Below are positions 40,049 through 57,341 of a stretch of DNA of 64,000 nucleotides, piece by piece. The notes beneath the pieces were generated by a model, which was not told the DNA's origin, did not search any database, and saw nothing but the letters and a program-made list of their open reading frames with translations. How positions within the stretch are numbered: position 1 is the first letter of the stretch; every line of letters starts with the position of its first letter. Both the position numbers and the translations under genes were made by a program. Source of the DNA: Candidatus Heimdallarchaeum endolithica (GTDB taxonomy: Archaea > Asgardarchaeota > Heimdallarchaeia > Heimdallarchaeales > Heimdallarchaeaceae); the NCBI GenBank assembly GCA_021513715.1, contig CP084167.1:1472001-1536000 (forward strand). The letters run 5' to 3'.

Positions 40049-41083
40049 ATGAAAAAATTATCTGTTGAAGATTCAGAAGCTTACAAGAAGATCGAAAAAA
40101 GAGTAGCGATGTTAAATTTAGTTAAACAATATTACGCCTCAGGAGCTAATTACTATGAATTTGATTCTGGCGATATTCCTCTACGAGAATTAATAAGATT
40201 TATGAATGATGAAGGATATCCAAGACGACTACCAGAAGCAGATATAGTTTTGAAAAGGATAGATGAAGAAATCAGTGAATTAAATGAAAAGAAGAAAAAT
40301 ATGCGTTTAGAAGAAATTGAATCTCGCAATTTAAATTCTCTACTTATTATTCCAAGTTGGACTAAACTTATTGGTACGCAAATGAAAGGTTTCTATTTAG
40401 GCAAACCTGTTAGAGAATTGAAAAGAGATACTATTGTGATGCTAACAGATACTACTCAAATGTTTAAAGAAATCACTGAAGAGAGAATTGCTGTTATTTT
40501 TGGTCCTGGTATCTTTTACAGTGAATTTTCTATCGAACCTGGAAACTTCTTGACAAATAGTTTTGAAATTAATGGAATATGTCTCCCTTTGGACCTATTA
40601 GGTAAAATATATACAGCAGAAAAGATATATCACTCTGATAAGATTGAAGCAACAATTACTGAGGTATCAACAATTTTACCTTTTCATATTATAGAACAGC
40701 CACAAACAATACAAGCTTATATAAGAGGGGTTATTAGTCGTAATGTCTTTTATCCAAACAAAGCTGCACTAGAATTTTTCAATAAACATGCTGTTGATGA
40801 CAATTCTTACAAAATTGAGGAAGGTTTCAAAATTGTTTCAGCACACCCACTTTGGTTTAATAAACTTTTAGTAAACAGTAGCCAAATACCAAAAACTGGA
40901 AGTGGAAAAAAAGAGTATAGTACAGCTGGTTTAGGAACTGTTTCTGCTTCAATCAACAAGATTTTACCTCTAATATTCTCTTCTCCGTCAAAAGAGGAAG
41001 AACAACTAAAGAAAATTAAAGAAATAGCAAAACAATATAAGGAAATGGGTTTAGGTATACTAAAAAGTTGGATTCCAACTTAA
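40049..41083 (+). CDS. Hypothetical protein
   Basis: 344-aa ORF with an N-terminal helical/coiled region; no recognised motif. Confidence 0.6.
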   Translation: MKKLSVEDSEAYKKIEKRVAMLNLVKQYYASGANYYEFDSGDIPLRELIRFMNDEGYPRRLPEADIVLKRIDEEISELNEKKKNMRLEEIESRNLNSLLIIPSWTKLIGTQMKGFYLGKPVRELKRDTIVMLTDTTQMFKEITEERIAVIFGPGIFYSEFSIEPGNFLTNSFEINGICLPLDLLGKIYTAEKIYHSDKIEATITEVSTILPFHIIEQPQTIQAYIRGVISRNVFYPNKAALEFFNKHAVDDNSYKIEEGFKIVSAHPLWFNKLLVNSSQIPKTGSGKKEYSTAGLGTVSASINKILPLIFSSPSKEEEQLKKIKEIAKQYKEMGLGILKSWIPT

Positions 41084-42708: not shown

Positions 42709-43245
42709 ATGAAAGAACAGGATAACAATTCCTTTACTTTTTCTTTTTCATACATGATTCACAGATTACATGAAAATTTTTCAATAAATAAGATACTGGA
42801 TCTAATCAAAAGAGTTAATTTAACAAACGAAAGTACAACCTTGCAAGTTTTAAATCCGAAGTATATAATCAGTAAAAGACAATTGGAGATAGCCATATAT
42901 CAAACAATAACAGCCTTTCACTCAAATGAGAATAGAGCTAGAGACAAAGGGACAGAATTGTTGCTTAGGCTCTCAGGATATAGACAAATAAAAAAAGCTC
43001 TAAAAATTTTTGGAATTGAGGATAAGTCTGAATATATTATGTTTATCGGTTTTGGAGATTCAGAAGAAGAAATAAATAAAAATTTAATTGAAATATCAGA
43101 GAAAATGGGAACAGACATAAAAGACTCTATTACTCAACTACCAGTTTCCAATGCTGAGATACTAAAGGAATATTACAATTGTAATGATATTGCCATCATA
43201 GAAAAAGCAGCCATAGAAAAAATAGCAACGCTAAAATTAGAATAA
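42709..43245 (+). CDS. cgi121: KEOPS complex subunit Cgi121
   Basis: QVLNPKYIIS...AIYQT...NRARDKGTELLLRLSGYRQIKKALKIFGI...AAIEKIA. Confidence 0.85.
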   Translation: MKEQDNNSFTFSFSYMIHRLHENFSINKILDLIKRVNLTNESTTLQVLNPKYIISKRQLEIAIYQTITAFHSNENRARDKGTELLLRLSGYRQIKKALKIFGIEDKSEYIMFIGFGDSEEEINKNLIEISEKMGTDIKDSITQLPVSNAEILKEYYNCNDIAIIEKAAIEKIATLKLE

Positions 43246-43415: not shown

Positions 43416-43559
43416 ATGAATAAACAAGACACTCAAACTGAACATTCGAAAAAAGAAGAAAAAAAATTCAAATGTACAGGCTGTCATACTCCACTTTCTA
43501 TTTATGATGAACGATGTCCAAAATGCGAAAGAAAAAACCCACATTATATTTATAGGTAA
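43416..43559 (+). CDS. 47-aa zinc-ribbon microprotein (not in ORF track)
   Basis: MNKQDTQTEHSKKEEKKFKCTGCHTPLSIYDERCPKCERKNPHYIYR; CxxC-x10-CxxC. Confidence 0.7.
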   Translation: MNKQDTQTEHSKKEEKKFKCTGCHTPLSIYDERCPKCERKNPHYIYR

Positions 43560-43623
43560 ATAGAACTATCAAAAAAATTATTAATAAAATATTTTTTATA
43601 GTAATAAAAAGGATTTGTGTAAT

Positions 43624-43794
43624 ATGTCTATTCCAACACCACCATCTAAAAACACAAAAGAGGAGGGAAACCCAGAAGCAAATTGTCCAGAATATAAACC
43701 TATAATGGGAAACTATTGTGAATTTTATTTAACAAGAACAGGGGAATGTATTAAAGGGGTAGGAAAATGTGATGGTTTTGGTGTATTAAAGTAA
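43624..43794 (+). CDS. 56-aa Cys-rich microprotein (not in ORF track)
   Basis: MSIPTPPSKNTKEEGNPEANCPEYKPIMGNYCEFYLTRTGECIKGVGKCDGFGVLK; four Cys, and richer in G+C than the flanking intergenic DNA. Confidence 0.55.
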   Translation: MSIPTPPSKNTKEEGNPEANCPEYKPIMGNYCEFYLTRTGECIKGVGKCDGFGVLK

Positions 43795-43804
43795 AAAAAT
43801 TAAA

Positions 43805-44638
43805 TTATTTTTTCAGGTATTCTTCAAGTTCTGTATTTATTTCTTTAACATTGGCAACAATTCTATTTTGACTTTCACCTTTATTACCTTCAACATTTAT
43901 TGTAGAAGAAGTTAAGAATAAAGGTTTATAGAAATCACGTAACATTTTTTTACCTTCTCCTAGTAAGCAAGAGCATGTTCCAATATAGTTTCCGTCAAGA
44001 TCTCTTTTAATTCTAAAATAAGTTATATGACTAGCTCTACTACGCCAAACAATTAAATTTGCTGTTAAAATTATATTATTTCGAATAATGTGACCTAGAA
44101 AAACGTTATCTTTCAAACCAAATTCATAAAGTTTCGGACTTGGTTTTGCTTCAAAATTTGTCATCAAAAAGATTGTAGTATCATCAGATAACTTTGTATA
44201 GCGCTTAATTGGTACATCTTTAGTTGATTCTTTAATTATAAAAGTAAAAGATTTTTCTCTGCGTAGTGTATATGCTGACTGGTTTTCTATAATTGCAGAA
44301 GCAACATTGATTAATAATTTAGCATTTTTCTTATTCAATTCAAATCTTTCTACTGATTGAACAGGAACTTTTGAACTAGAAATAAGAGAACAAGCGAGTG
44401 TTCCTATCATTTCATGGGTAACTGGACCTCTTATTTTACATCCAGAAGGTAAAACAACTACTGGAATATCATTTGGATCGATATTATTTTTTGCAAAAGA
44501 TTTTGTAGATTTATCAGATTGATATACAATTAGTTTCACATCGTCGTTATTCACTGATTCTATTATAGAACTCATAAAACTTAACATTGGTTTGCAATGA
44601 TCACATGTTTCAGAATGAATATACAGCTCTAGTTCCAT
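43805..44638 (-). CDS. Thioredoxin-fold (CDHC) N-terminal domain fused to an uncharacterised C-terminal domain
   Basis: LYIHSETCDHCKPM...IPVVVL...IRGP matches a Trx/glutaredoxin fold; a ~185-aa C-terminal domain follows. Confidence 0.65.
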   Translation of the reverse strand: MELELYIHSETCDHCKPMLSFMSSIIESVNNDDVKLIVYQSDKSTKSFAKNNIDPNDIPVVVLPSGCKIRGPVTHEMIGTLACSLISSSKVPVQSVERFELNKKNAKLLINVASAIIENQSAYTLRREKSFTFIIKESTKDVPIKRYTKLSDDTTIFLMTNFEAKPSPKLYEFGLKDNVFLGHIIRNNIILTANLIVWRSRASHITYFRIKRDLDGNYIGTCSCLLGEGKKMLRDFYKPLFLTSSTINVEGNKGESQNRIVANVKEINTELEEYLKK

Positions 44639-44741
44639 AGTTATCTATTCCTTTTTTTTTAAACAATAAAAGGGTTAAAGTGAATTATTATAAAGATTAC
44701 TATCAACTTAATTTTTGAGTTAGTATTTATTACACACTTTA

Positions 44742-45593
44742 CTATTTTAACAATGCAAAAACAATCCACAATATAGAAATAATTATTGCTGAAAGGATAT
44801 TGAATACAGAATACAATTTTAGAGTGTCATCAAAGTATAAATCATCAATATATTTGCCTATAGAATTTAACCTATTATCAATAGAGTACAATAAAGAGCT
44901 CTGTTTTGTTATTTCTCTCTTATTTTTTTCAGTTGATGCAAAAATATCAATAAAAGCATGTAACATTTTTTTATCTTGTTCCAATACTAAAGTTGAACTT
45001 ACTGACTCAAGTTTTTTATGCAGTTCCTCAATTTGTTCTCTTGAAAGAGCAGGTATCTTCCAAGAATAAGTTTCACTTGCTATTTTTCCAAGATGGTAAG
45101 CAATATCATCAATGTATATATCAAATGATATGGGTTGATAGTTTGTTTGATCTATCATTCTAAAGAACTGTAAATCTAAATCTTTTTTATTTTCGTTTTG
45201 ATAATATTTCAATGGATCTACAACTAAGGCTATAGCTTTGGGGAACAAGTTTTGATATGTTCTTTGTGTGTTTTTATCTGTTCCTGATAGAAAACACCCA
45301 TAACCAGGATGAGTATGCCACCAACCAACTATTGTTTGCTCACTATCTTGCTCTTGTAACTTCATTACAATATCAACTAAAGCTTCATCATCCATTACAA
45401 CAAAAGTACTCGTTTGTTGTTGCTTACCAGTATCGATATCTGTAATAATAAGCTGCCCAGTATCTTGTTTAACATACCCTATTAGTAAACCAGCCGATTC
45501 TTTTGATGTATCCATTCTATCAACAGTTAATATTTTTGCTAAAGCAGTTGCAGACAACAAAATTTCAATTTCTGAAGGTTCAGTCATTATCAA
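44742..45593 (-). CDS. JAMM/MPN+ (Rpn11/CSN5-like) metalloprotease with C-terminal transmembrane tail
   Basis: ESAGLLIG...IVGWWHTHPGYGCFLSGTDKNTQ...AIALVVDP; C-terminus YSVFNILSAIIISILWIVFALLK. Confidence 0.88.
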   Translation of the reverse strand: MIMTEPSEIEILLSATALAKILTVDRMDTSKESAGLLIGYVKQDTGQLIITDIDTGKQQQTSTFVVMDDEALVDIVMKLQEQDSEQTIVGWWHTHPGYGCFLSGTDKNTQRTYQNLFPKAIALVVDPLKYYQNENKKDLDLQFFRMIDQTNYQPISFDIYIDDIAYHLGKIASETYSWKIPALSREQIEELHKKLESVSSTLVLEQDKKMLHAFIDIFASTEKNKREITKQSSLLYSIDNRLNSIGKYIDDLYFDDTLKLYSVFNILSAIIISILWIVFALLK

Positions 45594-45665
45594 TTATAAA
45601 GTTATAATAGGAATATAAAATATTTCTCATTTCTTGATTCTTAATTAAAACAAATGAAAAATAAA

Positions 45666-46703
45666 TTATAACCTTGATAAAATTGGGTGTTCTGTTAATA
45701 AATAGTATGTCATTTCTTTAAGCATGATAATATCAGGATGGTCTTTTGAAATATTTTGGTTTTCAGTTTTTTCTATATAATCCATCATAGCCCATAATGC
45801 AATGTAAAAGTCAATAGGCAAACCTTTAGGGTACATTTCTTCTAATGTGGGTGCACGTAACTCTTTTAAATGGACATTATAGCCTTTCAAAAATTTACTA
45901 ATATCCTTTGCAGTTTCTACTAATCTCTTTGTTTCTCTATATTCTAGAATTGACTGACGTCCAAAAAAGGTTCCCATGTCCTCAAATCGATCATACGACC
46001 CTTTCATCCAGAAGGTTGGGTCAATTAGTGCGATAGTTATAACTTGATTGTCAGGTGTAATTCTTAGCATTAAATTACTTTGGTGAAAGTCTCCAAAAGC
46101 ATCACAGCCACCAATTGATGAAGAAATCATCTGTAAAAACATTTTGGATTTTTCTACTACAGTGCTTTCTTGTTCATTACCTCCAAAAATCTTTAAAACA
46201 AGTCTTCGATGAAGCTCTTCATAAATATCGACCATTACTTTTCTAGTTTGGCCTCCATGAATTATAGCTAGTACATAACCAGCCCAAAAACTCTTGTTTC
46301 TTACTTCAAAAGCATCTTCATAATTAATTCCAGCTATTCCTTCATAAGCTATAAAGGGGTTGTCTTCCAAGTTTACATAAATGAATCTTGGAATTCGCAC
46401 TACTGACCTTGCAGCAAATTTTTTCTCTAGACTCATTGTATTTTTTATTTCTAATAAAGCATCATTGCTATTTTCAATAAACTTGATAGCGACTTTCTTC
46501 TTATGTTCTGTGAATTCTGAAGAATAATAAACATCTACAACAAATACTTCACCAAACCGTCCAGCAGTTTTAAAATACTTAATATCATTTATTTTAATGT
46601 CAATTACATCTTTTCCAGTATCTCTATGTGCTTCATCTATGAAATAGTAACGGAATTGGTTAATTAATTTAAGTAACAGCGCTGAAGCAACATCAGTATT
46701 CAT
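45666..46703 (-). CDS. Protein-kinase-like fold (APH/atypical kinase) protein
   Basis: Gly loop TAGRFGEVFVV, VAIKF, alphaC Glu (LLEIKN), catalytic loop GDFHQSNLM and IDP. Confidence 0.75.
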   Translation of the reverse strand: MNTDVASALLLKLINQFRYYFIDEAHRDTGKDVIDIKINDIKYFKTAGRFGEVFVVDVYYSSEFTEHKKKVAIKFIENSNDALLEIKNTMSLEKKFAARSVVRIPRFIYVNLEDNPFIAYEGIAGINYEDAFEVRNKSFWAGYVLAIIHGGQTRKVMVDIYEELHRRLVLKIFGGNEQESTVVEKSKMFLQMISSSIGGCDAFGDFHQSNLMLRITPDNQVITIALIDPTFWMKGSYDRFEDMGTFFGRQSILEYRETKRLVETAKDISKFLKGYNVHLKELRAPTLEEMYPKGLPIDFYIALWAMMDYIEKTENQNISKDHPDIIMLKEMTYYLLTEHPILSRL

Positions 46704-47055
46704 GAGGTACTTTTCTTGAATATTTTTTATAAACTTATAGGAAAGAAGAAAAGTTAATTTATTTTTTTTGTGGACTTGAAAAGAGAAATAATGATTAGTA
46801 TAAAAGAATATAAAAAAAAGATGAAAAAAGAATAAAATTGATAATTCCCCAAAAGTAAAAGTAAACAGGGGATTGGAACAATATTTATTATTATAAAATT
46901 GTATATTAACAGAAATTATTTATTTAAAGAGCCTTTATTGTTTTTAAACAGTTTAAGCAAAAATATTCTAAAAAAGATTACAAATTACTAAAATTTAATA
47001 AATATAGAAAATAAAAGATAATTAGTCTCCCTTTCTATTGAAGTGAGGAAATAGT

Positions 47056-48150
47056 ATGACATCTGTACAAAAAATAACCTGGAACAAGGAAGAAATAAAG
47101 TTAGTTGCCGACTATTTAGTTAAAATAGCTAGCCAATCTAAAGAAGATAAAATAGATCTTCCAACAAAGAGTGAAACACTAAAACATGAAAAAATTGTTG
47201 AAGAAGCAAAAATTGGTATTGCAGAAGCATTAATAACAAAAGAAATTAATGAAGAAGCTTTAGTAGAAGATCAGAAAATAAAAGAAATAATGGAATTTTC
47301 ACAAATCCCACAACCAAAGACTGTAGAGAGAGTAGAAAAACAAGAAATAGAAAAAATAGGCGTTCTTGAAGAAAGACAAATAGAGTTTGAAGAAGAGAAA
47401 ATAGAAATTGAAGAAATGGGAGAAATAACTATTGATGAGAGAAAAATAGAAGAACCAGTTGTAGAAGAAAAAATAGAAGAACCAGTTGTAGAAGAAAAAA
47501 TAGGGTCAAACATTTTATCTCTAGCTAAAGAGATAGGTCAAGCTCTAACAAAAACAGAAAAAACTGAAGACATGTCGATTATTAAGAAAATAGAAACTGA
47601 AGATTTGTCAGCAGAAGTAGTCACAGAGCCGATCTTGGACAAACCAGTCGAGATTAGGCCAGAAGACTTCCCAGAAGATATAAGAGATATTGCTCTAGAA
47701 GAAATACCAGCTAAATCAGAAAAAGTAGAAATAAAACAAGAAACAAAAGAAGAAATACCAGCTAAACCAGAAAAAGTAGAAATAAAACAAGAAACAAAAG
47801 AAGAAATACCAGCTAAACCAGAAAAAGTAGAAATAAAACAAGAAACAAAAGAAGAAATACCAGCTAAATCAGAAAAAGTAGAAATAAAACAAGAAACAAA
47901 AGAAGAAATACCAGCTAAACCAGAAAAACAACTTACAGAAGAACAAATTAGAGCTAAAAAGCGAGAAGAAATAATTCAAAAAATGCTTGCAGAAACAAAA
48001 AAGAGAGAACAAGAAGCTGGTGTAAAAGTATATGACATGGGAGAAACAGCAGGAAAGAAGTATTCAGCTGTAATTATTGGTCAGGAATCATCAAAAAACA
48101 TTAAAAAATGGAAGAAAGTAACTAAAAAGAAAAAAAAGAGTAAAAAATAA
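47056..48150 (+). CDS. Glu/Lys-rich low-complexity protein with internal tandem repeats
   Basis: 364 aa, mostly E/K/I; 17-aa and 9-aa repeats; basic C-terminal tail; GTGAGG SD upstream. Confidence 0.7.
   Translation: MTSVQKITWNKEEIKLVADYLVKIASQSKEDKIDLPTKSETLKHEKIVEEAKIGIAEALITKEINEEALVEDQKIKEIMEFSQIPQPKTVERVEKQEIEKIGVLEERQIEFEEEKIEIEEMGEITIDERKIEEPVVEEKIEEPVVEEKIGSNILSLAKEIGQALTKTEKTEDMSIIKKIETEDLSAEVVTEPILDKPVEIRPEDFPEDIRDIALEEIPAKSEKVEIKQETKEEIPAKPEKVEIKQETKEEIPAKPEKVEIKQETKEEIPAKSEKVEIKQETKEEIPAKPEKQLTEEQIRAKKREEIIQKMLAETKKREQEAGVKVYDMGETAGKKYSAVIIGQESSKNIKKWKKVTKKKKKSKK
47443..47502 (+). repeat. 27-bp coding tandem duplication (KIEEPVVEE x2)
   Basis: aaaatagaagaaccagttgtagaagaa occurs twice, plus a partial third copy. 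Confidence 0.9.
47698..47928 (+). repeat. 51-bp coding tandem repeat, about 4.5 copies (EEIPAK[S/P]EKVEIKQETK)
   Basis: Units start at 47698, 47749, 47800, 47851 and 47902 (partial) and differ only at one T/C position. Confidence 0.95.
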
Positions 48151-48241
48151 CTTTTTCTCTCAAAAAATATTTTTCACAGTCCTAAAAAAATAAATACTAT
48201 AAAATAAATATAAATAAAGTAGTTGTATTGTTGTTGGATTT

Positions 48242-49300
48242 GTGAATAAAATGGAGGATATATCTGGTGTTAATTGGGATAATTTTGTAGGTTTTTGTAT
48301 TTTCACATTTGAAGAGGAATTAATTTTTGATAGAGTAATAAATACAAAAACATCATTTTCTACTGTTTATCATATCGTTGATACTTCAAATAAAATGAGA
48401 GAAGAACTTAAGAAATCAAAAAAAATGTCAGTTATAAATGATATTTTCAGAGTAGATTATGAAATTATCTTTAATGTTATTTTTGCATTTATGTTTAAAC
48501 CTGAAACATCAGATGAATTTTCGAATTTATCAATAAAAACCATTAAACAGATAATAATCGAACATTTAAAGGACTACGGAGCAATAGACAAAATGGAACT
48601 AGCATCCCAATGCGCTTTAATAAAACGATTGGGAAATCTTATTGCAGAACGAGCTTGTAATCAGATAAAAAATGAATATTTCTCAAAGAGAGCTAAGCTT
48701 CATGAAAAAACTGAAACTCAAGCAACTACCACACAACAACCTGAACCAGAACCAACAGTTAAAGAGACAAAAGAAGTAAAGAAAGAAGATCATCCTAAGG
48801 AGCCACAAGTTCAAACATTAGGTAAAGTTGAAAACCTTTTAGAATTTATAGGAGTTAAGGGAGATGAGACTTCTGAAGGATTTTTAAGTGAAGGAACGAA
48901 GTCAGAGTTAACAGAAAAGTTGTTAGAAGAAACGAAAAGAGATTCAATAAAAAGAGTTCTATCTTCTGTAATAAAAGGACTAAATGAAAAAACGGGTGTA
49001 TGCTTTGTTTACACTGAACAACTTGGGCAACTAGACATTTTATCATATGGAATGTCAGAGAAACATGCTAACTTTGTTCTAGGAATTCTGAGTAAATATC
49101 CAGAGATAATTAAACAAATCCTATCATCAAACAACGAAGAAAAAACCCTAGACGCTGGAGATGGTGTTGTCATTTTAGAAGAAACAGAAAAAGGTATTTT
49201 AGTAAGTATTACTAAATACAAAAAAGAGATACCTACAATTGTCCAACGATTAAAAATGGTTAAAATGCTAATTGAGCAATTCCTAAAAACATCATTTTAA
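48242..49300 (+). CDS. Two-domain protein: N-terminal longin-like domain, disordered linker, C-terminal roadblock-like domain (paralog A)
   Basis: The C-terminal KYPEIIKQILSSNNEEKTLDAGDGVVILEETEKGILVSIT...IVQRLKMVK is shared with the next two genes. Confidence 0.6.
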   Translation: MNKMEDISGVNWDNFVGFCIFTFEEELIFDRVINTKTSFSTVYHIVDTSNKMREELKKSKKMSVINDIFRVDYEIIFNVIFAFMFKPETSDEFSNLSIKTIKQIIIEHLKDYGAIDKMELASQCALIKRLGNLIAERACNQIKNEYFSKRAKLHEKTETQATTTQQPEPEPTVKETKEVKKEDHPKEPQVQTLGKVENLLEFIGVKGDETSEGFLSEGTKSELTEKLLEETKRDSIKRVLSSVIKGLNEKTGVCFVYTEQLGQLDILSYGMSEKHANFVLGILSKYPEIIKQILSSNNEEKTLDAGDGVVILEETEKGILVSITKYKKEIPTIVQRLKMVKMLIEQFLKTSF

Positions 49301-49325
49301 CATCGAAAATGAAAAAGAAAAGTTG

Positions 49326-49913
49326 CTAATTGTTTTCTAATAGAATTGAATTGTTTAACACTACTTGTTGAACATGTTTTAATCGACGGGCTAGTTCATC
49401 TACTGAAGATTTATCTTGAACAATACCAACAAGATAATTGTCTTTTTCACAGTTTTCAAGAACAACATATCCAATTCCAGTATCTAGTACTTTTACTTCT
49501 TCAGTGGAACCTAATAAATCGTTTATTACAGGAGGATATTTTCTAAAAATATTAAGTATCTTCATTACAACTTCTTTATTTAATGGCCCTCTAACAATTG
49601 CTGTTTTTTCTTTACTCTCTATATGTGGAACAAGTGCAGCGGCAGAAAGTGACTTAAGATCATTAGCTATACTGTCTAGCAAGGCATCAATTGTAACTTT
49701 AATTGCTTTTCTTACTTCTTCAGGAGAAGAAGTTTGAGATAAGAATTTTTTCAAATATTCTCCTGATTCAATTTTCTTTTTAGAAACCTTGATAGTATTA
49801 TATGCTATTTCTTCTAACTCTACAAAACTTGATTTTTCTGCAGCTTTTCTTTTTCTAGTGGATATCTTTCCAGCTTGTGATGATTGTTTTTTCGATGGAG
49901 ACATGCATATCAA
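49326..49913 (-). CDS. Roadblock-like domain protein (paralog B)
   Basis: KYPPVINDLLGSTEEVKVLDTGIGYVVLENCEKDNYLVGIV...LARRLKHVQ. Confidence 0.6.
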   Translation of the reverse strand: MICMSPSKKQSSQAGKISTRKRKAAEKSSFVELEEIAYNTIKVSKKKIESGEYLKKFLSQTSSPEEVRKAIKVTIDALLDSIANDLKSLSAAALVPHIESKEKTAIVRGPLNKEVVMKILNIFRKYPPVINDLLGSTEEVKVLDTGIGYVVLENCEKDNYLVGIVQDKSSVDELARRLKHVQQVVLNNSILLENN

Positions 49914-49990
49914 AGAAATAATAACGTCTAACTAAAAAAATCTTTTCCTTTATTTAGTAGGTAAATTTATTAGCACTGATTACTTAATGT

Positions 49991-51010
49991 ATGAATAGGT
50001 TTGGGGTTATGAATAGTTTAGGCTTTCAAGATATCATAAAACCATTAGTTGCAGTATTTACTTATAATATTGAAATTGGAAAAAGTGAAATAAAAGTAGA
50101 AAATGTAAGGACAAATAGAGAATTAGAAGAAATTGAAAGAAATTTTAACAGATTATCTTATGATTTTTTAGAATGGGTAAAAAGATATAATGAAATTACT
50201 ATCTTTAAGGGATCTTTTAGAGCAACATATATTAAATTTTATAATATGCTACTTCTCTTTGTATCAAGGTTAGTGAACTCAGGATTTGAAATAAGGCCAG
50301 TTATTAAAAAATTCTTGAATGAATTTGTAAATAGGTTGGTAGACGACTATATTTCAAAAAATCTCTCAAAATCAAAAATCAGATCTTTCTTAGAGATAGA
50401 AAAATTAGATAAAGAGAACCTAAAGTCTGAAATAGTAAAAACATTTACTAGGATGAAGATAGATCCTTCTCCTTTACTAGAAAAGTTAAGTAAAGAAAAG
50501 AGAGAAGAAGGTATTCAAGAGATTTATATTCAAGATCAGAAAAAAAGAAGAGAGGATATTCTTTCAGAGTATCAAAAAAGTGAACAATTTGAGCTGGTAC
50601 CAAGTGTAAAAAATATACATATGACAGCAGAGATAATTGAATCAGCAAATAAAAAAGCCATTACTTCTTTATTATTTACAGTTATTAAAGGATGTAAATC
50701 TCCATCTGCAGCTGCTTATATTTATCCAATGAAGGGAGGAGCTATTGGAGAACTCTATGCTGGTGATTTAGAAGAACATAAAATCATATATGTTCTAGAA
50801 GTTATTTCAGAACACCAAAAAGCGATAAATGAGATGCTTCATTCGAAAGAAGATCTAAAAATGCTAGATGCAGGAATTATACAAATAATTTTAGAAGATC
50901 TAACAGACGGTAAAATTATAATTGGAATAACAACAAATAAAGACGACGTTTACAATGTAGGGTATAAAATCAAAATTGCTAGATTCATAATAAAACAATT
51001 CGGATTCTAA
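49991..51010 (+). CDS. Two-domain protein: N-terminal longin-like domain + C-terminal roadblock-like domain (paralog C)
   Basis: EHQKAINEMLHSKEDLKMLDAGIIQIILEDLTDGKIIIGIT...VGYKIKIAR. Confidence 0.6.
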   Translation: MNRFGVMNSLGFQDIIKPLVAVFTYNIEIGKSEIKVENVRTNRELEEIERNFNRLSYDFLEWVKRYNEITIFKGSFRATYIKFYNMLLLFVSRLVNSGFEIRPVIKKFLNEFVNRLVDDYISKNLSKSKIRSFLEIEKLDKENLKSEIVKTFTRMKIDPSPLLEKLSKEKREEGIQEIYIQDQKKRREDILSEYQKSEQFELVPSVKNIHMTAEIIESANKKAITSLLFTVIKGCKSPSAAAYIYPMKGGAIGELYAGDLEEHKIIYVLEVISEHQKAINEMLHSKEDLKMLDAGIIQIILEDLTDGKIIIGITTNKDDVYNVGYKIKIARFIIKQFGF

Positions 51011-51073: not shown

Positions 51074-52114
51074 ATGAAAGAAGGAAAACTACCAATACCA
51101 AAACTTCACGAGATTCTAGAGCTAAAAGGAGCAAAAAACAGTGGTATAATATCTGCAGGAATAGTTGGACATGATGTCGCAGTAATTGATATTCAGTCTG
51201 CTAAAGAACAAGCATATAAATTTTATAACAATGAATCAGACATTTTATTAGTTGAAAAATCAGACCCTATCACTTTTCCAACTCCAAATCCAGGATATTA
51301 CTCTGTAGTAGTAAATTCTAATGATATTGCTTGTTCAGGAGGAATACCTTATGGTTTCTTGATAACAATTATTGCTCCCCCAGACACAACTTTTGAACAA
51401 ATCAAAGTAATTCAAAAAGAAACTCACAAACAATGTAAAGAGTTTAACATTTCTATCCTTGGAGGGCATACTGAAATATCACAATCAGTAAACACGATTA
51501 TTATTTCAGGACACATGCTTGGTTTTGTTCCAAAGGATTTCCTTGTTCCAAATAGCTTATCACCAGGGAACAAAATTATTGCATTGGGTTATTCTGGTAA
51601 AGAAGGAACAAATATATTGATTGAAGAAGTAGGAGAAGCAATATATAAAAAATTTACAAAAAAAGAGATAGCTGAATGGAAAGAAAAAAATTCAGATATT
51701 AGTATTCTTAATATTGCTCTTGAACTAAATAGGTTATTTAAACCGAGATTATTACATGATCCTACAGAAGGAGGTATTTTTGGTGCATTATATGAAATAG
51801 TTGCAACAACAGGATTAGGCATCAAACTAGATAACCTTCCCCCTCTTTCAAACGTTACAAAAAAACTATCGGAATTGTTGAATTTTAATCCTTATAGATT
51901 AATTTCGTCTGGAGGACTAATTATTGCAGTAGAAGAAGAAAAAGCATCAAAGATAATAGAATTCTTAAGGATGCGAAATTATCCTGCGGAAATAATAGGA
52001 ACAGTAATAACAAGTGACAAAAAATTGGTTTATAAAGAAGAAGAACTTCTTCCTCCTGAAGGTGATGATATTATTATAGCTCTAAATAATCTCAAGAAAA
52101 AAAGTGATGAATAA
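51074..52114 (+). CDS. AIR synthase (PurM/HypE)-related protein
   Basis: MKEGKLP, GHDVAVI, DPITF, NSNDIACSG, GGHTE, HDPTEGGIFGALYE and ISSG. Confidence 0.85.
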   Translation: MKEGKLPIPKLHEILELKGAKNSGIISAGIVGHDVAVIDIQSAKEQAYKFYNNESDILLVEKSDPITFPTPNPGYYSVVVNSNDIACSGGIPYGFLITIIAPPDTTFEQIKVIQKETHKQCKEFNISILGGHTEISQSVNTIIISGHMLGFVPKDFLVPNSLSPGNKIIALGYSGKEGTNILIEEVGEAIYKKFTKKEIAEWKEKNSDISILNIALELNRLFKPRLLHDPTEGGIFGALYEIVATTGLGIKLDNLPPLSNVTKKLSELLNFNPYRLISSGGLIIAVEEEKASKIIEFLRMRNYPAEIIGTVITSDKKLVYKEEELLPPEGDDIIIALNNLKKKSDE

Positions 52115-52788
52115 TGGAACAAAAAACTGACTATGATTATGATTTTTGGGGAGCAGAAGCAGAATTAACAAAGATTAAATGGTTTGGGTTAGAATCCATA
52201 AAGAAAGTAAGAATTTCAAAAAAATATAGAATTTCTGAAATTGATGAAATATTAAGAAAAAAACGGACAATCACAGAAGCAAAACTTCTAATTTCAGCAA
52301 AAAAAGCCAAAGTGCAGACTCCTTTTGTATATGATATTGAGACAAAAAAAAGAACAATAATCATGGAATTTATTAATGGAACTAAAGTCAAAGATTTTTT
52401 GAAATCTAAAGAAATTGATAAGAAAGTTAAAAGGGAATTAATGGAAGAGATAGGAAAAAAAGTAGGATTACTTCACTCAAATGGTTTGATCCATGGAGAT
52501 CTAACTACCAGCAATATTCTCATCAAGAATAACAAACTAGTGTTCATTGATTTTGGTTTGGGAAAGTTTTCAAATGAAATTGAAGATAAAGCTGTAGATG
52601 TTCTACTTATGAAAAAATGTTTAACCAGTACTCACGCAGAGGATAATAAGGAATACTTTTATGCTTTTCAAAAAGGATATATATCAACTTATATCAAAGG
52701 AAGTGAAATATTAAAACGTGCTCTAAAGGTCGAAGCAAGGGGAAGACATCTAAAAGAGTCAGATGTAATTTCAGAATACATACTTTAA
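52114..52788 (+). CDS. bud32: KEOPS kinase/ATPase Bud32
   Basis: GAEA, KVRISKKYR, RTITEAKLL, HGDLTTSN, IDFGLG, EDKAVD and ARGR. Confidence 0.93.
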   Translation: MEQKTDYDYDFWGAEAELTKIKWFGLESIKKVRISKKYRISEIDEILRKKRTITEAKLLISAKKAKVQTPFVYDIETKKRTIIMEFINGTKVKDFLKSKEIDKKVKRELMEEIGKKVGLLHSNGLIHGDLTTSNILIKNNKLVFIDFGLGKFSNEIEDKAVDVLLMKKCLTSTHAEDNKEYFYAFQKGYISTYIKGSEILKRALKVEARGRHLKESDVISEYIL

Positions 52789-52796
52789 ATATAGAA

Positions 52797-54101
52797 TCAT
52801 ATTTTTCTAATAATTGGTAACGAATTTATTTTTTTTATTATTTTCCACGTTTCTTCTGCATATTTCTCTTGATGTGTCCAATTACCCTCTATTAATTTTT
52901 GTTTTGATAGTTTTCCTAATTCTTTTCTTATTTTTTTGGAAGTCTTACCAACTGGAGCATTTGCTAATTTTGAACCTGGTAAAGGCATAAAAACATGTGC
53001 TCTAATTTTTGCTCCTATTTTACTAAGAGATTTAATAACTTCGATAGATTGCAATTCATCTGATTCTGTAGCATCTGGTAACCCAAAAATAAAGTCTACA
53101 ATTGGCACAAAACCTGCATCACGGATATGTTTTATTGCTCTTATCCCTTCTTCTACAGAATGCCCTCTATGGTACATTCTTAAAATTTTATCACTCCCAG
53201 ATTGTAACCCTATAGCTATTTTATTATTAGAAACTATTTTTTTTAATTTAGTCATGATGCTTTTAGTAACAGTTTCTGGTCTGACTTCTCCGGGAAAAGT
53301 CCCGAAAAAGACTCTTCTTATTCCATCTGTATTTTTTATTCTTGTGAGTAAATCTATTATTGCCTCTTCATTAATCTCTTTTGGATTTCGAGATAAATAA
53401 CCAAAAGAATTTGGAGTAATAAATCTTATATCATCTAATTTATGTTTTCCCATCCATTGAACAGTCTCCAATATCACATCTGGTGACCTATGTCGTGTTT
53501 TTCTGTTAAATATACTTGGAACTTGACAGAATGCACACCCAAAAGAGCAACCTCTTGTAATTTCCAAGGGCGGAAATAATTTTCTCTTTCTTGAGATCAT
53601 TGGGTAGCTATCTAAATTTATTTGAGGAGGAGAAGGATTAACAATTAGTTTTTCTTTATTTTCAGTTAAATAAGCTATTCCTGGTGTTTTTTCTAATTTC
53701 TCTTGATTTAACCATTTTTCTAAAAAAAGAGAAAATGATAATTCTCCTTCACCGATAAAAGCATAGTCAAATCCAAGTCTTAAAGTGCTCATAGGGTCTC
53801 CAGTAGAGTGACTCCCTCCTGCGATAAACATAATTCTTTTCAAATCTTGAGTTTTTAGGTTAATGTACAGTTCATTCATAGCAGAATATATTTTTTCCAG
53901 TTGTGCAGTTCTAAAGGAAAAAGCAATAATCACTCTATAATATTTTTTTAAGTATGATTGTGTCTTTTTGCTGTCGACATCTGATTCAAGTATAAGATCA
54001 AACCCACAGAGTTTTTCATTTTGGTCTATTGCTGCAACTAGTGGAGTAATACTATAGAAATTCTTTTTCTCAAGACTAAAAATAAGGGCAGAGTTGTTCA
54101 A
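52797..54101 (-). CDS. B12-binding-domain radical SAM protein (TIGR04013-like)
   Basis: IAGGSHSTGDP, GEGE, EITRGCSFGCAFC, RFITPNSFGY, FFGTFPGEVRPE, QSGS and HVFMPLPG. Confidence 0.85.
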   Translation of the reverse strand: MNNSALIFSLEKKNFYSITPLVAAIDQNEKLCGFDLILESDVDSKKTQSYLKKYYRVIIAFSFRTAQLEKIYSAMNELYINLKTQDLKRIMFIAGGSHSTGDPMSTLRLGFDYAFIGEGELSFSLFLEKWLNQEKLEKTPGIAYLTENKEKLIVNPSPPQINLDSYPMISRKRKLFPPLEITRGCSFGCAFCQVPSIFNRKTRHRSPDVILETVQWMGKHKLDDIRFITPNSFGYLSRNPKEINEEAIIDLLTRIKNTDGIRRVFFGTFPGEVRPETVTKSIMTKLKKIVSNNKIAIGLQSGSDKILRMYHRGHSVEEGIRAIKHIRDAGFVPIVDFIFGLPDATESDELQSIEVIKSLSKIGAKIRAHVFMPLPGSKLANAPVGKTSKKIRKELGKLSKQKLIEGNWTHQEKYAEETWKIIKKINSLPIIRKI

Positions 54102-55102
54102 TTTTCATTTCTCCAGTTAACAACTACATCTTCAACTCTATAATGTTGATCAACAATTGTTTCTTTTAGGGGAGTAGAATACCCTCTACTATACATTATA
54201 AGCCCTAACCAAGCGATCATTAATCCGTTATCAATTGCTAAACTAGGTTCTAAACCAAAAAATCTTGACTCATGGGATTCTGCCATAACTTTTAGCATTT
54301 CTTTTAGTCGATTGTTTGAAGCAACCCCCCCACATACTAACACTTCATTTTTTTTGGTATGTGCTAATGCCCTTTCAGTAACTTCAACTAGCATTGCAAA
54401 AACAGTCTCTTGCAAACTATAAGACAAATCCTCAAGAGTATATTCTTTTTTCTTAATCAACTTAGAAATATGTGTTAAAATACCAGAAAAAGACACATCC
54501 ATTCCTTTTATAACATAAGGAATTGGAATATATTTTGTACCCTTTTCTGCCAATAATTCGATTACACGCCCCATTGGAGCTTTTTTATCACTTAAACCAG
54601 CATTTCTTCCAAAAACATCCAAACAATTTCCGACAGGAATATCGATAGTTTCCCCAAAAACACGATATCTACCTTCACTAAAAGCAATTATTTGTGTGTT
54701 TCCTCCTGAAACATACAAAACAACAGGATCCACCATATTCCCTACCAATCGTCCGATTTCAACATGAGCTATAGGGTGGTTTACACCTACTAATGGTTTT
54801 TCGTACTTTAGCGCTAGTGTTCTTGCAGCAACTGCACCTACTCTAAGGCAAGGGCCCAACCCTGGACCTTTTGTAAAAGAGACAATATCTATATCATCCA
54901 TAGTAAGTTTAGAAATATTAAGTGCTTCATTTATCACATCAGGAATATTTTTAGCATGAAATTCAGATGCCTCACGAGGATGAATACCTGAACCTAATGG
55001 GGGTTTGTAGGTTCTTCTGATATTTGCAAGTATTTTTCCATCGTTATCTATTATTCCAACTCCTAATTTGTCAGCAGAGCTTTCAATACCGAGAGATAAC
55101 AT
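54098..55102 (-). CDS. kae1: tRNA t6A threonylcarbamoyltransferase Kae1
   Basis: LGIESSA, GIHPREA, GPGLGPCL, VNHPIAHVE, YVSGGNTQ, GGVASN and DNGLMIA. Confidence 0.96.
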   Translation of the reverse strand: MLSLGIESSADKLGVGIIDNDGKILANIRRTYKPPLGSGIHPREASEFHAKNIPDVINEALNISKLTMDDIDIVSFTKGPGLGPCLRVGAVAARTLALKYEKPLVGVNHPIAHVEIGRLVGNMVDPVVLYVSGGNTQIIAFSEGRYRVFGETIDIPVGNCLDVFGRNAGLSDKKAPMGRVIELLAEKGTKYIPIPYVIKGMDVSFSGILTHISKLIKKKEYTLEDLSYSLQETVFAMLVEVTERALAHTKKNEVLVCGGVASNNRLKEMLKVMAESHESRFFGLEPSLAIDNGLMIAWLGLIMYSRGYSTPLKETIVDQHYRVEDVVVNWRNEN

Positions 55103-56096: not shown

Positions 56097-57341
56097 TTAT
56101 ATAGCCGTTGGAAACTTTGCATAGCTTCTAAACTCTATCCAATCTTCTAAGTGCCTGTTAATTATATTTTCTATTTCATCTTGATCTAGTTTTCTTGCAA
56201 CTGATTCATCAGATGTTAATAAAGCCATAATATATCTTTCATTTTTAAATTCTAGATCTCGTAGTATGAAAATTTCATTTGTTTTTTCTTCATCATCTAG
56301 AACGTATCTTCTTATTCTTAGAAAAGGTTCTCTCATATTTGCTATAGTTTCAATTGCTTCATAGTATGCATTATGGGATAGTTCTTCTAGTTTCTCATTT
56401 TTTGAGTATTGAGCAAAGCAGATATTACTTCTAAAATCATATAAACCAAAGAATTCTGCATTAAGAGTTTCAGCTACTTGTTTTGATGCATTTGCGATAT
56501 AATCTTGAATTAAACTTATGTTTCTAAATATGTGTGAAAAAGCACCTAGTATGGAAGAACGTATATGAACGCTCGTTCTAAAGATTCCTTTTGCTGGATC
56601 AAATGAAGGAACATTAGAATGTAAATATTGCACCATTGAACCAAATATTGAATTAGCTTTTTCACTTAAGACAAAATCAGGGTCAGATTTGTGGAAGAAT
56701 ATAGTCCATGGAACATCTAACCTTAGTTTTTGAGTAACATTAACTATTTGTTTTAAATATTCAAAACTTTCTTCATATCTATCTTCCGCTTGAACATCTA
56801 CCACATAAATAATTGTATCTGTTCCGATAAAATACTGTTCAGGATTATTGAGATAGTCATCTCTGTATATTTTTTGTCCTCCTAATTCATGTAAGTGAAT
56901 ATCAAGACCAAAAACCTCTAACTTTCCACGTAAAAGCCCTCTTGTAGGAGTTAAAGCATTTAACTTCTGGAAAAGCAGAGAAAAAGCTCCTCTGTGTTTC
57001 AAAGCAATGGAAAGTGAGGTTTTTCCTACATTATCTATCCCTGCTAAAATAATTTTAGCTCCTGTGGTTATTTTTTCAGTTTTCTCCACAAGCAAAAGTT
57101 TGCTTGCAGCAATCCAACTATCTATACGCTCTTTTGGAAAAAGTTTTGACAGTTCATTGTAATGTTTATTCCACTCCTTTGCCAATTTTTCAATTGTTTC
57201 TAAACCAAAATTCTCAAGAGACTTAACCTCACTTTCTCTAATATCTAAGAGGGCTATTACTGGTAAATCAGCTAAATTAGTTTCTTTTCTATAATCCTCT
57301 TTTAACAGCTTTTCTTTTATATCTAACACTTTTTTCACCAA
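56097..57341 (-). CDS. Small GTPase (Arf/Rag-like) with N-terminal HhH-like domain and C-terminal roadblock/longin-like domain
   Basis: G1 GIDNVGKT, G2 PTRG, G3 ELGGQ, G4 HKSD and G5 TSV; ~90-aa N-terminal and ~135-aa C-terminal extensions. Confidence 0.85.
   Translation of the reverse strand: MVKKVLDIKEKLLKEDYRKETNLADLPVIALLDIRESEVKSLENFGLETIEKLAKEWNKHYNELSKLFPKERIDSWIAASKLLLVEKTEKITTGAKIILAGIDNVGKTSLSIALKHRGAFSLLFQKLNALTPTRGLLRGKLEVFGLDIHLHELGGQKIYRDDYLNNPEQYFIGTDTIIYVVDVQAEDRYEESFEYLKQIVNVTQKLRLDVPWTIFFHKSDPDFVLSEKANSIFGSMVQYLHSNVPSFDPAKGIFRTSVHIRSSILGAFSHIFRNISLIQDYIANASKQVAETLNAEFFGLYDFRSNICFAQYSKNEKLEELSHNAYYEAIETIANMREPFLRIRRYVLDDEEKTNEIFILRDLEFKNERYIMALLTSDESVARKLDQDEIENIINRHLEDWIEFRSYAKFPTAI

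What the first reader, a model, noticed from the sequence alone, without database searches (positions are those of the whole stretch)
43416..51010. Candidate undescribed signalling locus: kinase + membrane JAMM + Trx-sensor, divergent from a repeat protein and three roadblock-like paralogs
Seen: between cgi121 and the AIR-synthase/bud32 genes lies a 7.6-kb block with no metabolic genes. A minus-strand run (atypical kinase, tail-anchored JAMM, Trx fusion) shares a 350-bp divergent intergenic region with a charged repeat protein and three paralogous roadblock/longin-like genes, plus two Cys microproteins. Inference: a lineage-specific post-translational regulatory system integrating phosphorylation, ubiquitin-like deconjugation, redox input and GTPase-scaffold folds. 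The functional linkage is unproven.
Basis: inference. Interest (0 to 1): 0.75.

Follow-up and report, generated by a model that had tools for sequence, protein, structure and literature searches.

The report
Mosaic Asgard block with membrane deubiquitinase
This 7.6-kb stretch of an Asgard archaeon is not one signalling system but three separate gene groups brought together by genome rearrangement; its notable member is a ubiquitin-cleaving enzyme of the Rpn11 type with a membrane anchor, a form found across Asgard archaea and not described in the papers I could search.

Summary
All nine genes are real. The genome is most likely Ca. Heimdallarchaeum endolithica. The single-system reading is not supported: the block is a mosaic.
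(A) The two Cys microproteins and the Trx-fold gene lie 49-61 kb away, on the opposite strand, in 7 of 7 testable genomes of other genera. A genus-specific inversion joined them to the JAMM gene.
(B) Kinase and JAMM are neighbours in two families only. Their phylum-wide profiles disagree, and a conserved TATA-like box between them suggests the JAMM gene has its own promoter. The kinase has the APH/choline-kinase fold; its substrate is unknown.
(C) The acidic protein and the roadblock trio (one gene on the minus strand) are family-restricted. Rb1 folds as longin plus roadblock.
B and C are adjacent in 24 of 27 family genomes, but 69% of neighbour pairs persist at that depth anyway.
The solid result is an intact Rpn11-like JAMM with a C-terminal membrane helix, in a clade spanning 14 Asgard families. 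It is this genome's best candidate for maturing the ESCRT-linked pro-ubiquitin (GG-F). The scan already reported this JAMM, the kinase-JAMM pair and the trio in other genomes.

The parts
43416..43559 (+). Cys microprotein 1 (47 aa), CxxC-x10-CxxC zinc ribbon; module A
   Evidence: Conserved cysteines in orthologues from 3 genera, third-position bias 672 vs 452/335; weak DZR hit E 0.001, below cut-off; travels with the Trx gene, not the kinase
43615..43794 (+). Cys microprotein 2 (56-59 aa, probable ATG at 43624), four conserved Cys, no family; module A
   Evidence: Third-position bias 621 vs 348/266; no Pfam or NCBIfam hit; beside the Trx gene in 11 of 12 Trx loci
43805..44638 (-). Thioredoxin-fold N-terminal domain (CDHC) plus a conserved ~180-aa domain of unknown family; module A
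   Evidence: Single copy in 46 of 47 genomes of the order; Trx/glutaredoxin matches; CxxC only in own family, absent in 12 of 12 other orthologues
44639..44741 (.). Inversion breakpoint region joining module A to module B in this genus
   Evidence: Elsewhere JAMM is flanked by cofE-like, folP, galK-like and AAA-like genes, which here lie at C1:1468196-1472301, left of the window; Trx is 49-61 kb away on the opposite strand in 7/7 genomes
44742..45587 (-). Tail-anchored Rpn11-like JAMM/MPN+ metalloprotease (281 aa from the ATG at 45587): catalytic domain, helical stalk, C-terminal transmembrane helix; module B
   Evidence: JAB 53.3 bits vs cut-off 22.5; E29/H90/H92/S100/D103 invariant in 34; TM helix in 41/41 class orthologues and 15 from other classes; best solved relative CsRpn11, E 1e-53
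45614..45628 (-). BRE/TATA-like box 27-33 nt before the JAMM ATG (probable own promoter)
   Evidence: Conserved at the same distance in 12 of 12 aligned family sequences from 4 genera; pattern only, no transcript data
45666..46703 (-). APH/choline-kinase-fold phosphotransferase (345 aa), catalytic residues intact, substrate unknown; module B
   Evidence: AF2 pLDDT 93.5; LxmK Z19.8, aminopropanol kinase Z18.6, MTR kinase Z18.1; K74, E85, D205, H207, N210 invariant
46704..47055 (.). Divergent intergenic region with two separate TATA-like boxes (46726-46739 towards the kinase, 46990-47003 towards the acidic gene) and a variable spacer
   Evidence: Both boxes recur in relatives; by inspection the spacer is not conserved across genera
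47056..48150 (+). Acidic, probably disordered protein (364 aa) with conserved N- and C-terminal motifs, a genus-specific 17-aa repeat and a basic tail; module C
   Evidence: Glu 22%, Lys 18%; 51-nt repeat from 47697; only the ends conserved; found in own family only
48242..49300 (+). Rb1: longin domain (about aa 11-146), disordered linker, roadblock domain (about aa 222-349); probable ATG at 48251; module C
   Evidence: AF2 model; MglB Z10.4 rmsd 3.0 over 117; AP2-mu longin Z10.0 rmsd 3.0 over 114
49326..49913 (-). Rb2: basic/helical N-terminus plus roadblock domain; the most conserved paralogue (59-67% across genera); module C
49991..51010 (+). Rb3: longin-like N-terminal domain (pattern only), helical linker, roadblock domain; module C
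   Evidence: C-terminal homology to Rb1, probability 98%; N-terminal homology to Rb1 not detected, E 0.14; weak Atlas roadblock/longin leads

Best explanation
The block is a mosaic of three modules with separate histories and probably separate transcription.

Module A (Cys1, Cys2, Trx fusion) was placed next to the JAMM gene by a ~48-kb inversion in the ancestor of this genus. [Shown by synteny.]

Module B is an old neighbour pair.
- The JAMM enzyme sits on the inner face of the membrane through its C-terminal helix and cuts after the Gly-Gly of ubiquitin. It probably matures the genome's single pro-ubiquitin (ends GG-F) and removes ubiquitin from membrane proteins handled by the Ub-ESCRT system. 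[Motif, anchor and conservation shown; topology, substrate and ESCRT role inferred from CsRpn11 and genome content.]
- The kinase is an Asgard-specific APH-fold phosphotransferase that probably acts independently of the JAMM. [Fold shown; substrate open.]

Module C (acidic protein, Rb1-3, and in other genera a two-helix membrane zinc-ribbon protein) is a family-restricted set of roadblock/longin paralogues. They most likely dimerise through their roadblock domains into a platform for a small GTPase encoded elsewhere. [Folds shown for Rb1; complex and GTPase inferred.]
For: - Trx is 49-61 kb from the kinase on the opposite strand in 7/7 other-genus genomes, and the JAMM's usual neighbours lie 45 kb away here.
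- Tail-anchored JAMM occurs in 14 families; the kinase family was not found in 9 of them.
- Kinase and JAMM are unlinked in families f2 and f3.
- A 2-phosphoglycerate-kinase-like pair lies near the kinase in four families, against two for the JAMM.
- A conserved TATA-like box lies between kinase and JAMM.
- Trio and acidic gene are family-only, 41 kb from the kinase in G002, and reshuffled in G004.
- Baseline retention of neighbour pairs within the family is 46/67.
- Pro-ubiquitin GG-F lies in an ESCRT-E1 cluster that has no JAMM; the only other JAB gene sits in its own E1-JAB-Ubl operon.
Against: - Kinase-JAMM adjacency survives between two families (27/27 in f1; 6/12 direct and 5 more within 4 kb in f4), where only 6 of 32 sampled pairs do.
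- Modules B and C are divergent neighbours in 24 of 27 family genomes.
- A distant member of the kinase family is fused to a longin domain in one lineage (P0089, P0198).
- Synteny cannot exclude protein-level interaction.
- The baseline comes from loci chosen around these genes, not from whole genomes.
Confidence: 0.72

Rival explanations
1. Modules B and C form a family-level membrane signalling unit: the kinase phosphorylates the longin-roadblock complex or the acidic scaffold, and the anchored JAMM controls its ubiquitination. Only module A is a bystander.
For: Divergent adjacency in 24 of 27 genomes of 3 genera, and linked but reshuffled in a fourth. APH-fold enzymes include peptide and protein kinases (LxmK top hit Z19.8, TvaE, YihE). 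The kinase family has 2-5 paralogues per genome and a longin fusion. A membrane zinc-ribbon gene lies inside module C in other genera.
Against: Split by 41 kb in genus g2. Family baseline retention is 69%. Kinase and JAMM are far older and wider than the trio. Two separate TATA-like boxes with a variable spacer and no obvious shared operator. The longin in the fusion is the common Asgard type and not detectably homologous to Rb1's.
Confidence: 0.13
2. Kinase and JAMM alone are a functional pair in Heimdallarchaeaceae and Kariarchaeaceae, for example acting on pilus-machine membrane proteins, or the kinase phosphorylating ubiquitin or the JAMM.
For: Adjacent and co-oriented in 27/27 f1 genomes and 6/12 f4 genomes, within 4 kb in 5 more. 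In 5 f4 genomes a FlaI-like ATPase lies beside them, and in 3 of these TadC/ArlJ-like genes as well.
Against: Discordant profiles. Unlinked in f2, f3 and f9. In 3 f4 genomes the two genes are turned to opposite strands with other genes between; in a fourth the JAMM is also turned. The JAMM has its own TATA-like box. The pilus cluster is 1.5 Mb away in this genome.
Confidence: 0.2
3. One reading: all nine genes, with redox input from the Trx fusion and Cys microproteins, are one post-translational system.
For: All nine are contiguous in both species of this genus, and none has an obvious biosynthetic annotation.
Against: Module A adjacency is an inversion junction seen in 2 genomes of 1 genus. 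CxxC is absent outside the family. The profiles of the modules differ.
Confidence: 0.03
4. The kinase is a metabolic small-molecule kinase (sugar, amino-alcohol or lipid head group), so the block does contain a metabolic gene and phosphorylation signalling is not involved. This is compatible with the best explanation.
For: Most fold matches are small-molecule kinases. The only sequence-level PDB hit is MTR kinase, E 0.014, over the catalytic motifs. Its widest neighbour is a 2-phosphoglycerate-kinase-like pair.
Against: Identities are only 10-16%; the top Z is a peptide kinase; paralogue expansion and domain fusions look like signalling.
Confidence: 0.5

Closest known systems
CsRpn11 of Ca. 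Caldiarchaeum subterraneum (PDB 6FJU/6FJV/6FNN/6FNO; PMC6043591, PMC5654768)
   Same: Best solved match to the JAMM profile (E 1e-53, positions 2-164). Same E...HxH-x7-S-xx-D site. CsRpn11 matures pro-ubiquitin after GG and removes ubiquitin without partners.
   Different: CsRpn11 is 202 aa, was crystallised full length, lies beside its ubiquitin operon, and neither paper uses the word 'transmembrane'. This enzyme has a ~100-aa helical stalk and a terminal membrane helix and lies 190 kb from ubiquitin.
Eukaryotic Rpn11/PSMD14, CSN5 and AMSH
   Same: JAMM domain matches at E 1e-27, 1e-21 and 1e-18. AMSH acts at ESCRT membranes, the role inferred here (own knowledge).
   Different: They are soluble and are recruited through the lid, signalosome or STAM/ESCRT-III (own knowledge). 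None has an integral tail anchor.
APH/choline-kinase superfamily (LxmK, aminopropanol kinase, MTR kinase, macrolide phosphotransferases, YihE/SrkA)
   Same: Fold Z 14-20 over about 280 residues; Lys-Glu pair, DxHxxN loop and metal-binding Asp.
   Different: 10-16% identity; FGD instead of HGD; DP[T/x]F instead of DFG/DWE. It forms a compact family of 131 clusters, and every named member I saw was Asgard.
MglB, Ragulator LAMTOR2/3 and Asgard roadblocks (PMC10933270); longins of AP-mu, VAMP7 and Sec22; tri-longin GEFs Mon1-Ccz1
   Same: The Rb1 C-domain superposes on MglB (Z10.4), Asgard roadblocks and Mon1; its N-domain on the AP2-mu and VAMP7 longins (Z9-10). The best whole-chain Foldseek hit is a Mon1-Ccz1-RMC1 chain, E 6e-4.
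   Different: Two domains, not three; no Pfam Robl_LC7 or longin hit; no GTPase gene stably linked. Longin and roadblock shuffling is common in Asgard (130 such families; 10.1101/2020.10.19.343400).
Thioredoxin/glutaredoxin and KaiB-like Trx-fold proteins
   Same: N-terminal Trx fold with CxxC and an invariant Pro59.
   Different: CxxC is restricted to one family, so the ancestral protein was probably redox-inactive; the fused C-terminal domain is unassigned.

Membership tests
JAMM/MPN+ isopeptidases (Rpn11-like) | Catalytic Glu plus HxH-x7-S-xx-D zinc site | tested here: met
   E29, H90, H92, S100, D103 invariant in 34 orthologues; one-residue insertion in some other classes
JAMM/MPN+ isopeptidases (Rpn11-like) | Family model above cut-off; nearer to Rpn11/CsRpn11 than to desampylases | tested here: met
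   JAB 53.3 vs 22.5 bits; desampylase model 19.5 vs 130; PDB ranking
JAMM/MPN+ isopeptidases (Rpn11-like) | Cleaves after the Gly-Gly of ubiquitin | not testable with these tools
   A candidate substrate ending GG-F is in the genome
CsRpn11-type archaeal ubiquitin-operon JAMM | Soluble, and encoded beside the Ub/E1/E2/E3 operon | tested here: not met
   Terminal hydrophobic helix; ubiquitin cluster at C1:1.70 Mb, 190 kb away
Proteasome-lid Rpn11 | Built into a lid with Rpn8 and PCI subunits | not tested
   No search for lid subunits was made
Tail-anchored membrane proteins | Single hydrophobic helix at the extreme C-terminus, no other TM segment or signal peptide | tested here: met
   KD19 2.63, 2 residues from the end; one of 8 such ORFs among 2566; conserved in 56 sequences
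Tail-anchored membrane proteins | Actual membrane insertion with the N-terminus in the cytosol | not testable with these tools
   Hydropathy only
APH/choline-kinase superfamily | Bilobal APH fold with Lys/Glu, DxHxxN and metal Asp | tested here: met
   APH Pfam hit in 10 of 42 members, best E 6e-7
Hanks-type protein kinases | HRD, DFG and APE motifs; Pfam kinase model above cut-off | tested here: not met
   Motifs read FGDFHQSN and IDPTF; PK_Tyr_Ser-Thr 11.6 vs 23.1 bits, N-lobe only
Hanks-type protein kinases | Fold closer to eukaryotic protein kinases than to APH | tested here: inconclusive
   Listed rows are APH-type, Bud32 and WaaP; an unlisted family is not excluded
Roadblock/LC7 (MglB type) | Alpha-beta2-alpha-beta3-alpha fold | tested here: met
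   Rb1 222-349 vs MglB Z10.4, rmsd 3.0, 117 aligned; Rb2 and Rb3 by sequence homology
Roadblock/LC7 (MglB type) | Pfam Robl_LC7 match | tested here: not met
   None of the three is among the genome's 8 matches
Roadblock/LC7 (MglB type) | Dimer that binds and regulates a small GTPase | not testable with these tools
   Needs biochemistry; the nearby Rag-like gene is 39-44 kb away in other genera
Longin domain | Beta2-alpha-beta3-alpha2 fold in Rb1 | tested here: met
   Residues 11-146 vs AP2-mu Z10.0, rmsd 3.0, 114 aligned; VAMP7 Z9.2
Longin domain | The same fold in the Rb3 N-terminus | tested here: inconclusive
   Not folded by me; hhalign to Rb1 E 0.14; low-confidence Atlas lead
Tri-longin Rab GEFs (Mon1-Ccz1) | Three longin-type domains per subunit | tested here: not met
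   Rb1 has two folded domains; Rb2 has one
Redox-active thioredoxins | Trx fold with CxxC conserved across orthologues | tested here: inconclusive
   CxHC in 12/12 family members, absent in 12/12 others; Pfam scores below cut-off

The most novel reading that the evidence does not exclude
In Heimdallarchaeaceae the kinase, the tail-anchored Rpn11, the acidic scaffold and the longin-roadblock trio (plus the membrane zinc-ribbon protein of other genera) form a membrane-bound GTPase-regulating platform resembling Ragulator or Mon1-Ccz1, controlled by phosphorylation and deubiquitination: a prokaryotic analogue of the eukaryotic endolysosomal signalling hub.
Probability: 0.1. Interest if true: 0.85.

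Novelty: new variant of a known kind. Interest (0 to 1): 0.4.

Why it matters
The negative result matters for the scan: this block should not be pursued as one system, and the Trx and Cys genes should be dropped from it.

The positive result is a widespread Asgard Rpn11 variant fixed to the membrane. If it cleaves ubiquitin there, ubiquitin signalling at membranes, with a dedicated deubiquitinase, predates eukaryotes. It would supply the AMSH-like step for the Asgard Ub-ESCRT pathway described in PMC9192718, where the deubiquitinase appears only as a survey marker. This genome makes the test clean: one ubiquitin with a one-residue extension, and one Rpn11-type JAMM.

The longin-roadblock trio is a small, tractable candidate for an archaeal GEF/GAP platform. 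Both parts were already flagged by this scan in other genomes.

Tried and rejected
- Complex prediction of the Rb1 roadblock domain with Rb2: no verdict (median 0.04 against a mark of 0.32). Not used as evidence either way.
- RNA runs: no RNA holder listed, so co-transcription is untested.
- Sigma-70 and terminator scan: at or below shuffled levels, uninformative for an archaeon.
- A strict BRE-TATA pattern was only weakly enriched genome-wide (3.7% vs 0.4% at -30). The promoter calls therefore rest on cross-genome conservation, not on that pattern.
- Trx C-terminal domain: Pfam, PDB profile and Atlas gave no family; the TssC hit is below cut-off.
- Sequence search of the PDB with the Rb1 profile found nothing.
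- A SNARE identity for the JAMM stalk is not supported. Heptad periodicity is modest, stalk length varies, and the Heimdall SNARE paper does not mention it.
- The Rag-like GTPase at 56097-57341 as a cluster member: rejected, 39-44 kb away in other genera.
- KEOPS link: bud32/kae1 stay beside the trio in most of the family but are separated in G002 and G005. cgi121 was not next to module A in the other-genus loci. Treated as ordinary gene order.
- A fourth, distant Rb paralogue at C1:2504972 has profile E 1e-4 but was not confirmed by hhalign.
- Literature searches for a membrane-anchored Asgard JAMM found no description. The library lacks most subscription papers.
- No Hanks-type kinase appeared in either top-50 fold list; that absence does not exclude the family.

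Full report
SOURCE. The window is C1:1472001-1536000 of a single 3,326,783-bp contig. Its closest relative (93% identity, 3,081,793 bp) is named Ca. Heimdallarchaeum aukensis. PMC8813620 gives 3.32 and 3.08 Mbp for the two circular Heimdallarchaeum genomes, so this is most likely Ca. H. endolithica (inference). Family codes come from the genome searches. f1 is the own family (Heimdallarchaeaceae); f2-f4 are in the same order; f5-f7 in the same class. Reading f4 as Kariarchaeaceae and f5 as Hodarchaeales is my inference.

OBSERVATION. All nine ORFs exist. The three paralogues share a C-terminal domain (E 1e-10 to 1e-14; probability 98%), but the middle one is on the minus strand. The acidic protein has a 51-nt repeat that is not conserved outside the genus; only its ends are. 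Both Cys microproteins are coding: cysteines are invariant and substitutions favour third codon positions.

SYNTENY SPLITS THE BLOCK IN THREE. I compared up to 20 kb around the kinase in 40 loci.

Module A (Cys1-Cys2-Trx) is a conserved unit beside AMP phosphorylase. It touches the JAMM gene only in the two species of this genus. In all 7 other-genus genomes where both are on one contig it lies 49-61 kb away on the opposite strand. There the JAMM is flanked by cofE-like, folP, galactokinase-like and AAA-like genes, which in this genome lie just left of the window. One inversion of about 48 kb, plus small local flips, explains this. The Trx CxxC is present in 12 of 12 family members and absent in 12 of 12 orthologues from f2-f4, so redox input is at most a family trait.

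Module B (kinase-JAMM) is adjacent in all 27 f1 genomes where both are assembled, directly adjacent in 6 of 12 f4 genomes and within 4 kb in 5 more. Only 6 of 32 sampled pairs survive between f4 and this genome, so the pair is old. But it is unlinked in f2 and f3. It travels in a mixed neighbourhood with a 2-phosphoglycerate-kinase-like pair and, in 5 f4 genomes, a FlaI-like ATPase. The 2PGK-like pair is near the kinase in four families, the JAMM in two. The kinase-JAMM gap holds a BRE/TATA-like box 27-33 nt before the JAMM ATG in 12 of 12 family sequences from 4 genera, which suggests separate transcription. Profiles disagree. The tail-anchored JAMM occurs in 14 families, and the kinase family was not found in 9 of them. 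The kinase has 1-4 copies in f5, where the JAMMs examined are soluble.

Module C (acidic protein, Rb1, Rb2, Rb3) occurs as a unit only in f1; f2 has one homologue and some f4 genomes a distant one. Two other genera carry a two-helix membrane zinc-ribbon gene inside it, not found in this genome. B and C are divergent neighbours in 24 of 27 genomes, 41 kb apart in G002, separated in G003 and reshuffled in G004. Within the family 46 of 67 sampled neighbour pairs are retained anyway (the sample is biased to these loci). The divergent gap contains two separate TATA-like boxes and a variable spacer.

THE JAMM. JAB scores 53.3 bits against a cut-off of 22.5, and the Glu, two His, Ser and Asp are invariant. 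The best solved relative is C. subterraneum Rpn11 (E 1e-53), ahead of eukaryotic Rpn11, CSN5 and AMSH. CsRpn11 is a 202-aa enzyme, crystallised full length, that cuts pro-ubiquitin after GG and deconjugates substrates (PMC6043591, PMC5654768). The window's enzyme adds a helical stalk and a hydrophobic helix ending 2 residues from the C-terminus; only 8 of 2566 ORFs in the genome have that profile. All 41 orthologues from f1-f4 and f7 and 15 from other Asgard classes have it. A tree of the catalytic domain alone puts 56 anchored and 3 soluble sequences on one side of a branch (98/98). The tree is unrooted and has long branches, so gain versus loss is not decided. The genome has one ubiquitin, ending GG-F, in a Snf7-Vps4-Ub-E1-UEV/Vps23 cluster without a JAMM. 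Its other JAB gene sits in a separate E1-JAB-Ubl operon. The soluble, E2-linked Rpn11-like paralogue of most family members was not found in this genus. The anchored enzyme is therefore the best candidate for ubiquitin maturation and removal at the membrane (inference).

THE KINASE. The model is confident (pLDDT 93.5) and matches APH/choline-kinase-fold enzymes: LxmK Z19.8, aminopropanol kinase Z18.6, MTR kinase Z18.1, at rmsd 4-5 and 10-16% identity. Catalytic residues are invariant. The only sequence-level PDB hit is MTR kinase, E 0.014. The family is compact (131 clusters), and the named members are Asgard. One lineage fuses a distant member to a common Asgard longin (P0089, P0198). Peptide kinases exist in this fold, so I put small molecule against protein substrate at about even odds.

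THE TRIO. Rb1 folds as longin (11-146; AP2-mu Z10.0, VAMP7 Z9.2), a disordered linker and roadblock (222-349; MglB Z10.4). The best whole-chain hit is a Mon1-Ccz1-RMC1 chain, E 6e-4. Roadblock and longin dimers are GTPase platforms, and Asgard GTPase genes are generally not in operons with them (PMC10933270). Such domains are abundant and shuffled in Asgard (10.1101/2020.10.19.343400). A GEF/GAP scaffold is the likely role, but neither the complex nor a partner is shown. The Rag-like GTPase 5 kb downstream is 39-44 kb away in other genera.

VERDICT. Observation partly confirmed. The integrated system is not supported (0.03 for all nine genes, 0.13 for B plus C, 0.2 for the kinase-JAMM pair; these readings are not mutually exclusive with each other). 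The mosaic reading gets 0.72. Novelty lies in the parts: a membrane-anchored Rpn11 variant, an Asgard APH-fold kinase family and a longin-roadblock paralogue set. I found no paper on the anchored JAMM. The scan itself has reported the anchored JAMM, the pair and the trio on other DNA. New here are the mapped inversion, the discordant profiles, the internal promoter-like box, the 2PGK neighbourhood and the GG-F substrate argument. Interest 0.40.

Noticed in passing
G000 C1:531553-534414 (L136:553-3414): E1 (ThiF), a Prok-JAB-type JAMM, an 88-aa Ubl-like ORF ending VVG-L and a possible E2-like ORF. The non-GG end recalls the UFM1 system (from memory). The last two ORFs have no Pfam hit.
   Followed up: partly
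G000 C1:1703369-1711991 (L137): Ub-ESCRT cluster: Snf7-type genes, Vps4, ubiquitin ending GG-F, E1, a UEV-Vps23-Vps28 fusion and a Rab-like GTPase; no JAMM gene.
   Followed up: partly
window 56097-57341 (-): Rag-like GTPase with an N-terminal extension, conserved in the family at 64-69% identity but not stably linked to the trio.
   Followed up: yes
P0089 / P0198 (L135:5679-7202): Longin domain fused to a member of this kinase family; two sequences, 78% identical.
   Followed up: partly
P0102, P0108-P0110, P0117, P0119-P0122: Kinase-family members of about 550 aa with a 200-aa unassigned C-terminal extension; one is named Hodarchaeales.
   Followed up: no
G000 C1:1552721-1553722 (L060:9519-10601): Second kinase paralogue 35 kb away, 25% identical, 12 kb from the 2PGK-like pair.
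   Followed up: partly
L026:6192-6857; L107:7580-8224: Two-helix membrane protein with a C-terminal zinc ribbon between Rb1 and Rb2 in genera g2 and g5; not found in this genome by tblastn.
   Followed up: partly
L042, L043, L048 (f4): Kinase and JAMM interleaved with FlaI-like ATPase, ArlJ/TadC-like and pilin-like genes. In this genome that pilus cluster is at C1:3033017-3042056.
   Followed up: yes
L115, L118, L120, L127 and others: In other Asgard classes the anchored JAMM often lies beside conserved ~256-aa and ~400-aa hypothetical genes instead of a kinase.
   Followed up: no
L088-L093 and L111: Soluble ~300-330-aa JAMMs of f5, f6 and f7 with a beta-rich C-terminal domain; one has a weak TRAP-beta hit.
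   Followed up: no
window 42709-43245, 52114-55102: KEOPS genes cgi121, bud32 and kae1 bracket the block, probably through the same rearrangements.
   Followed up: partly
window 40049-41083 (+): 344-aa protein with no Pfam or NCBIfam hit, 98% identical in the sister species.
   Followed up: no
G000 C1:2504972-2505970 (L138): Possible fourth, distant longin-roadblock paralogue; similar single genes occur in some f4 genomes.
   Followed up: partly
L025, L027, L029: The acidic gene is split into two ORFs in three genomes, possibly frameshifts or assembly errors in its low-complexity middle.
   Followed up: no
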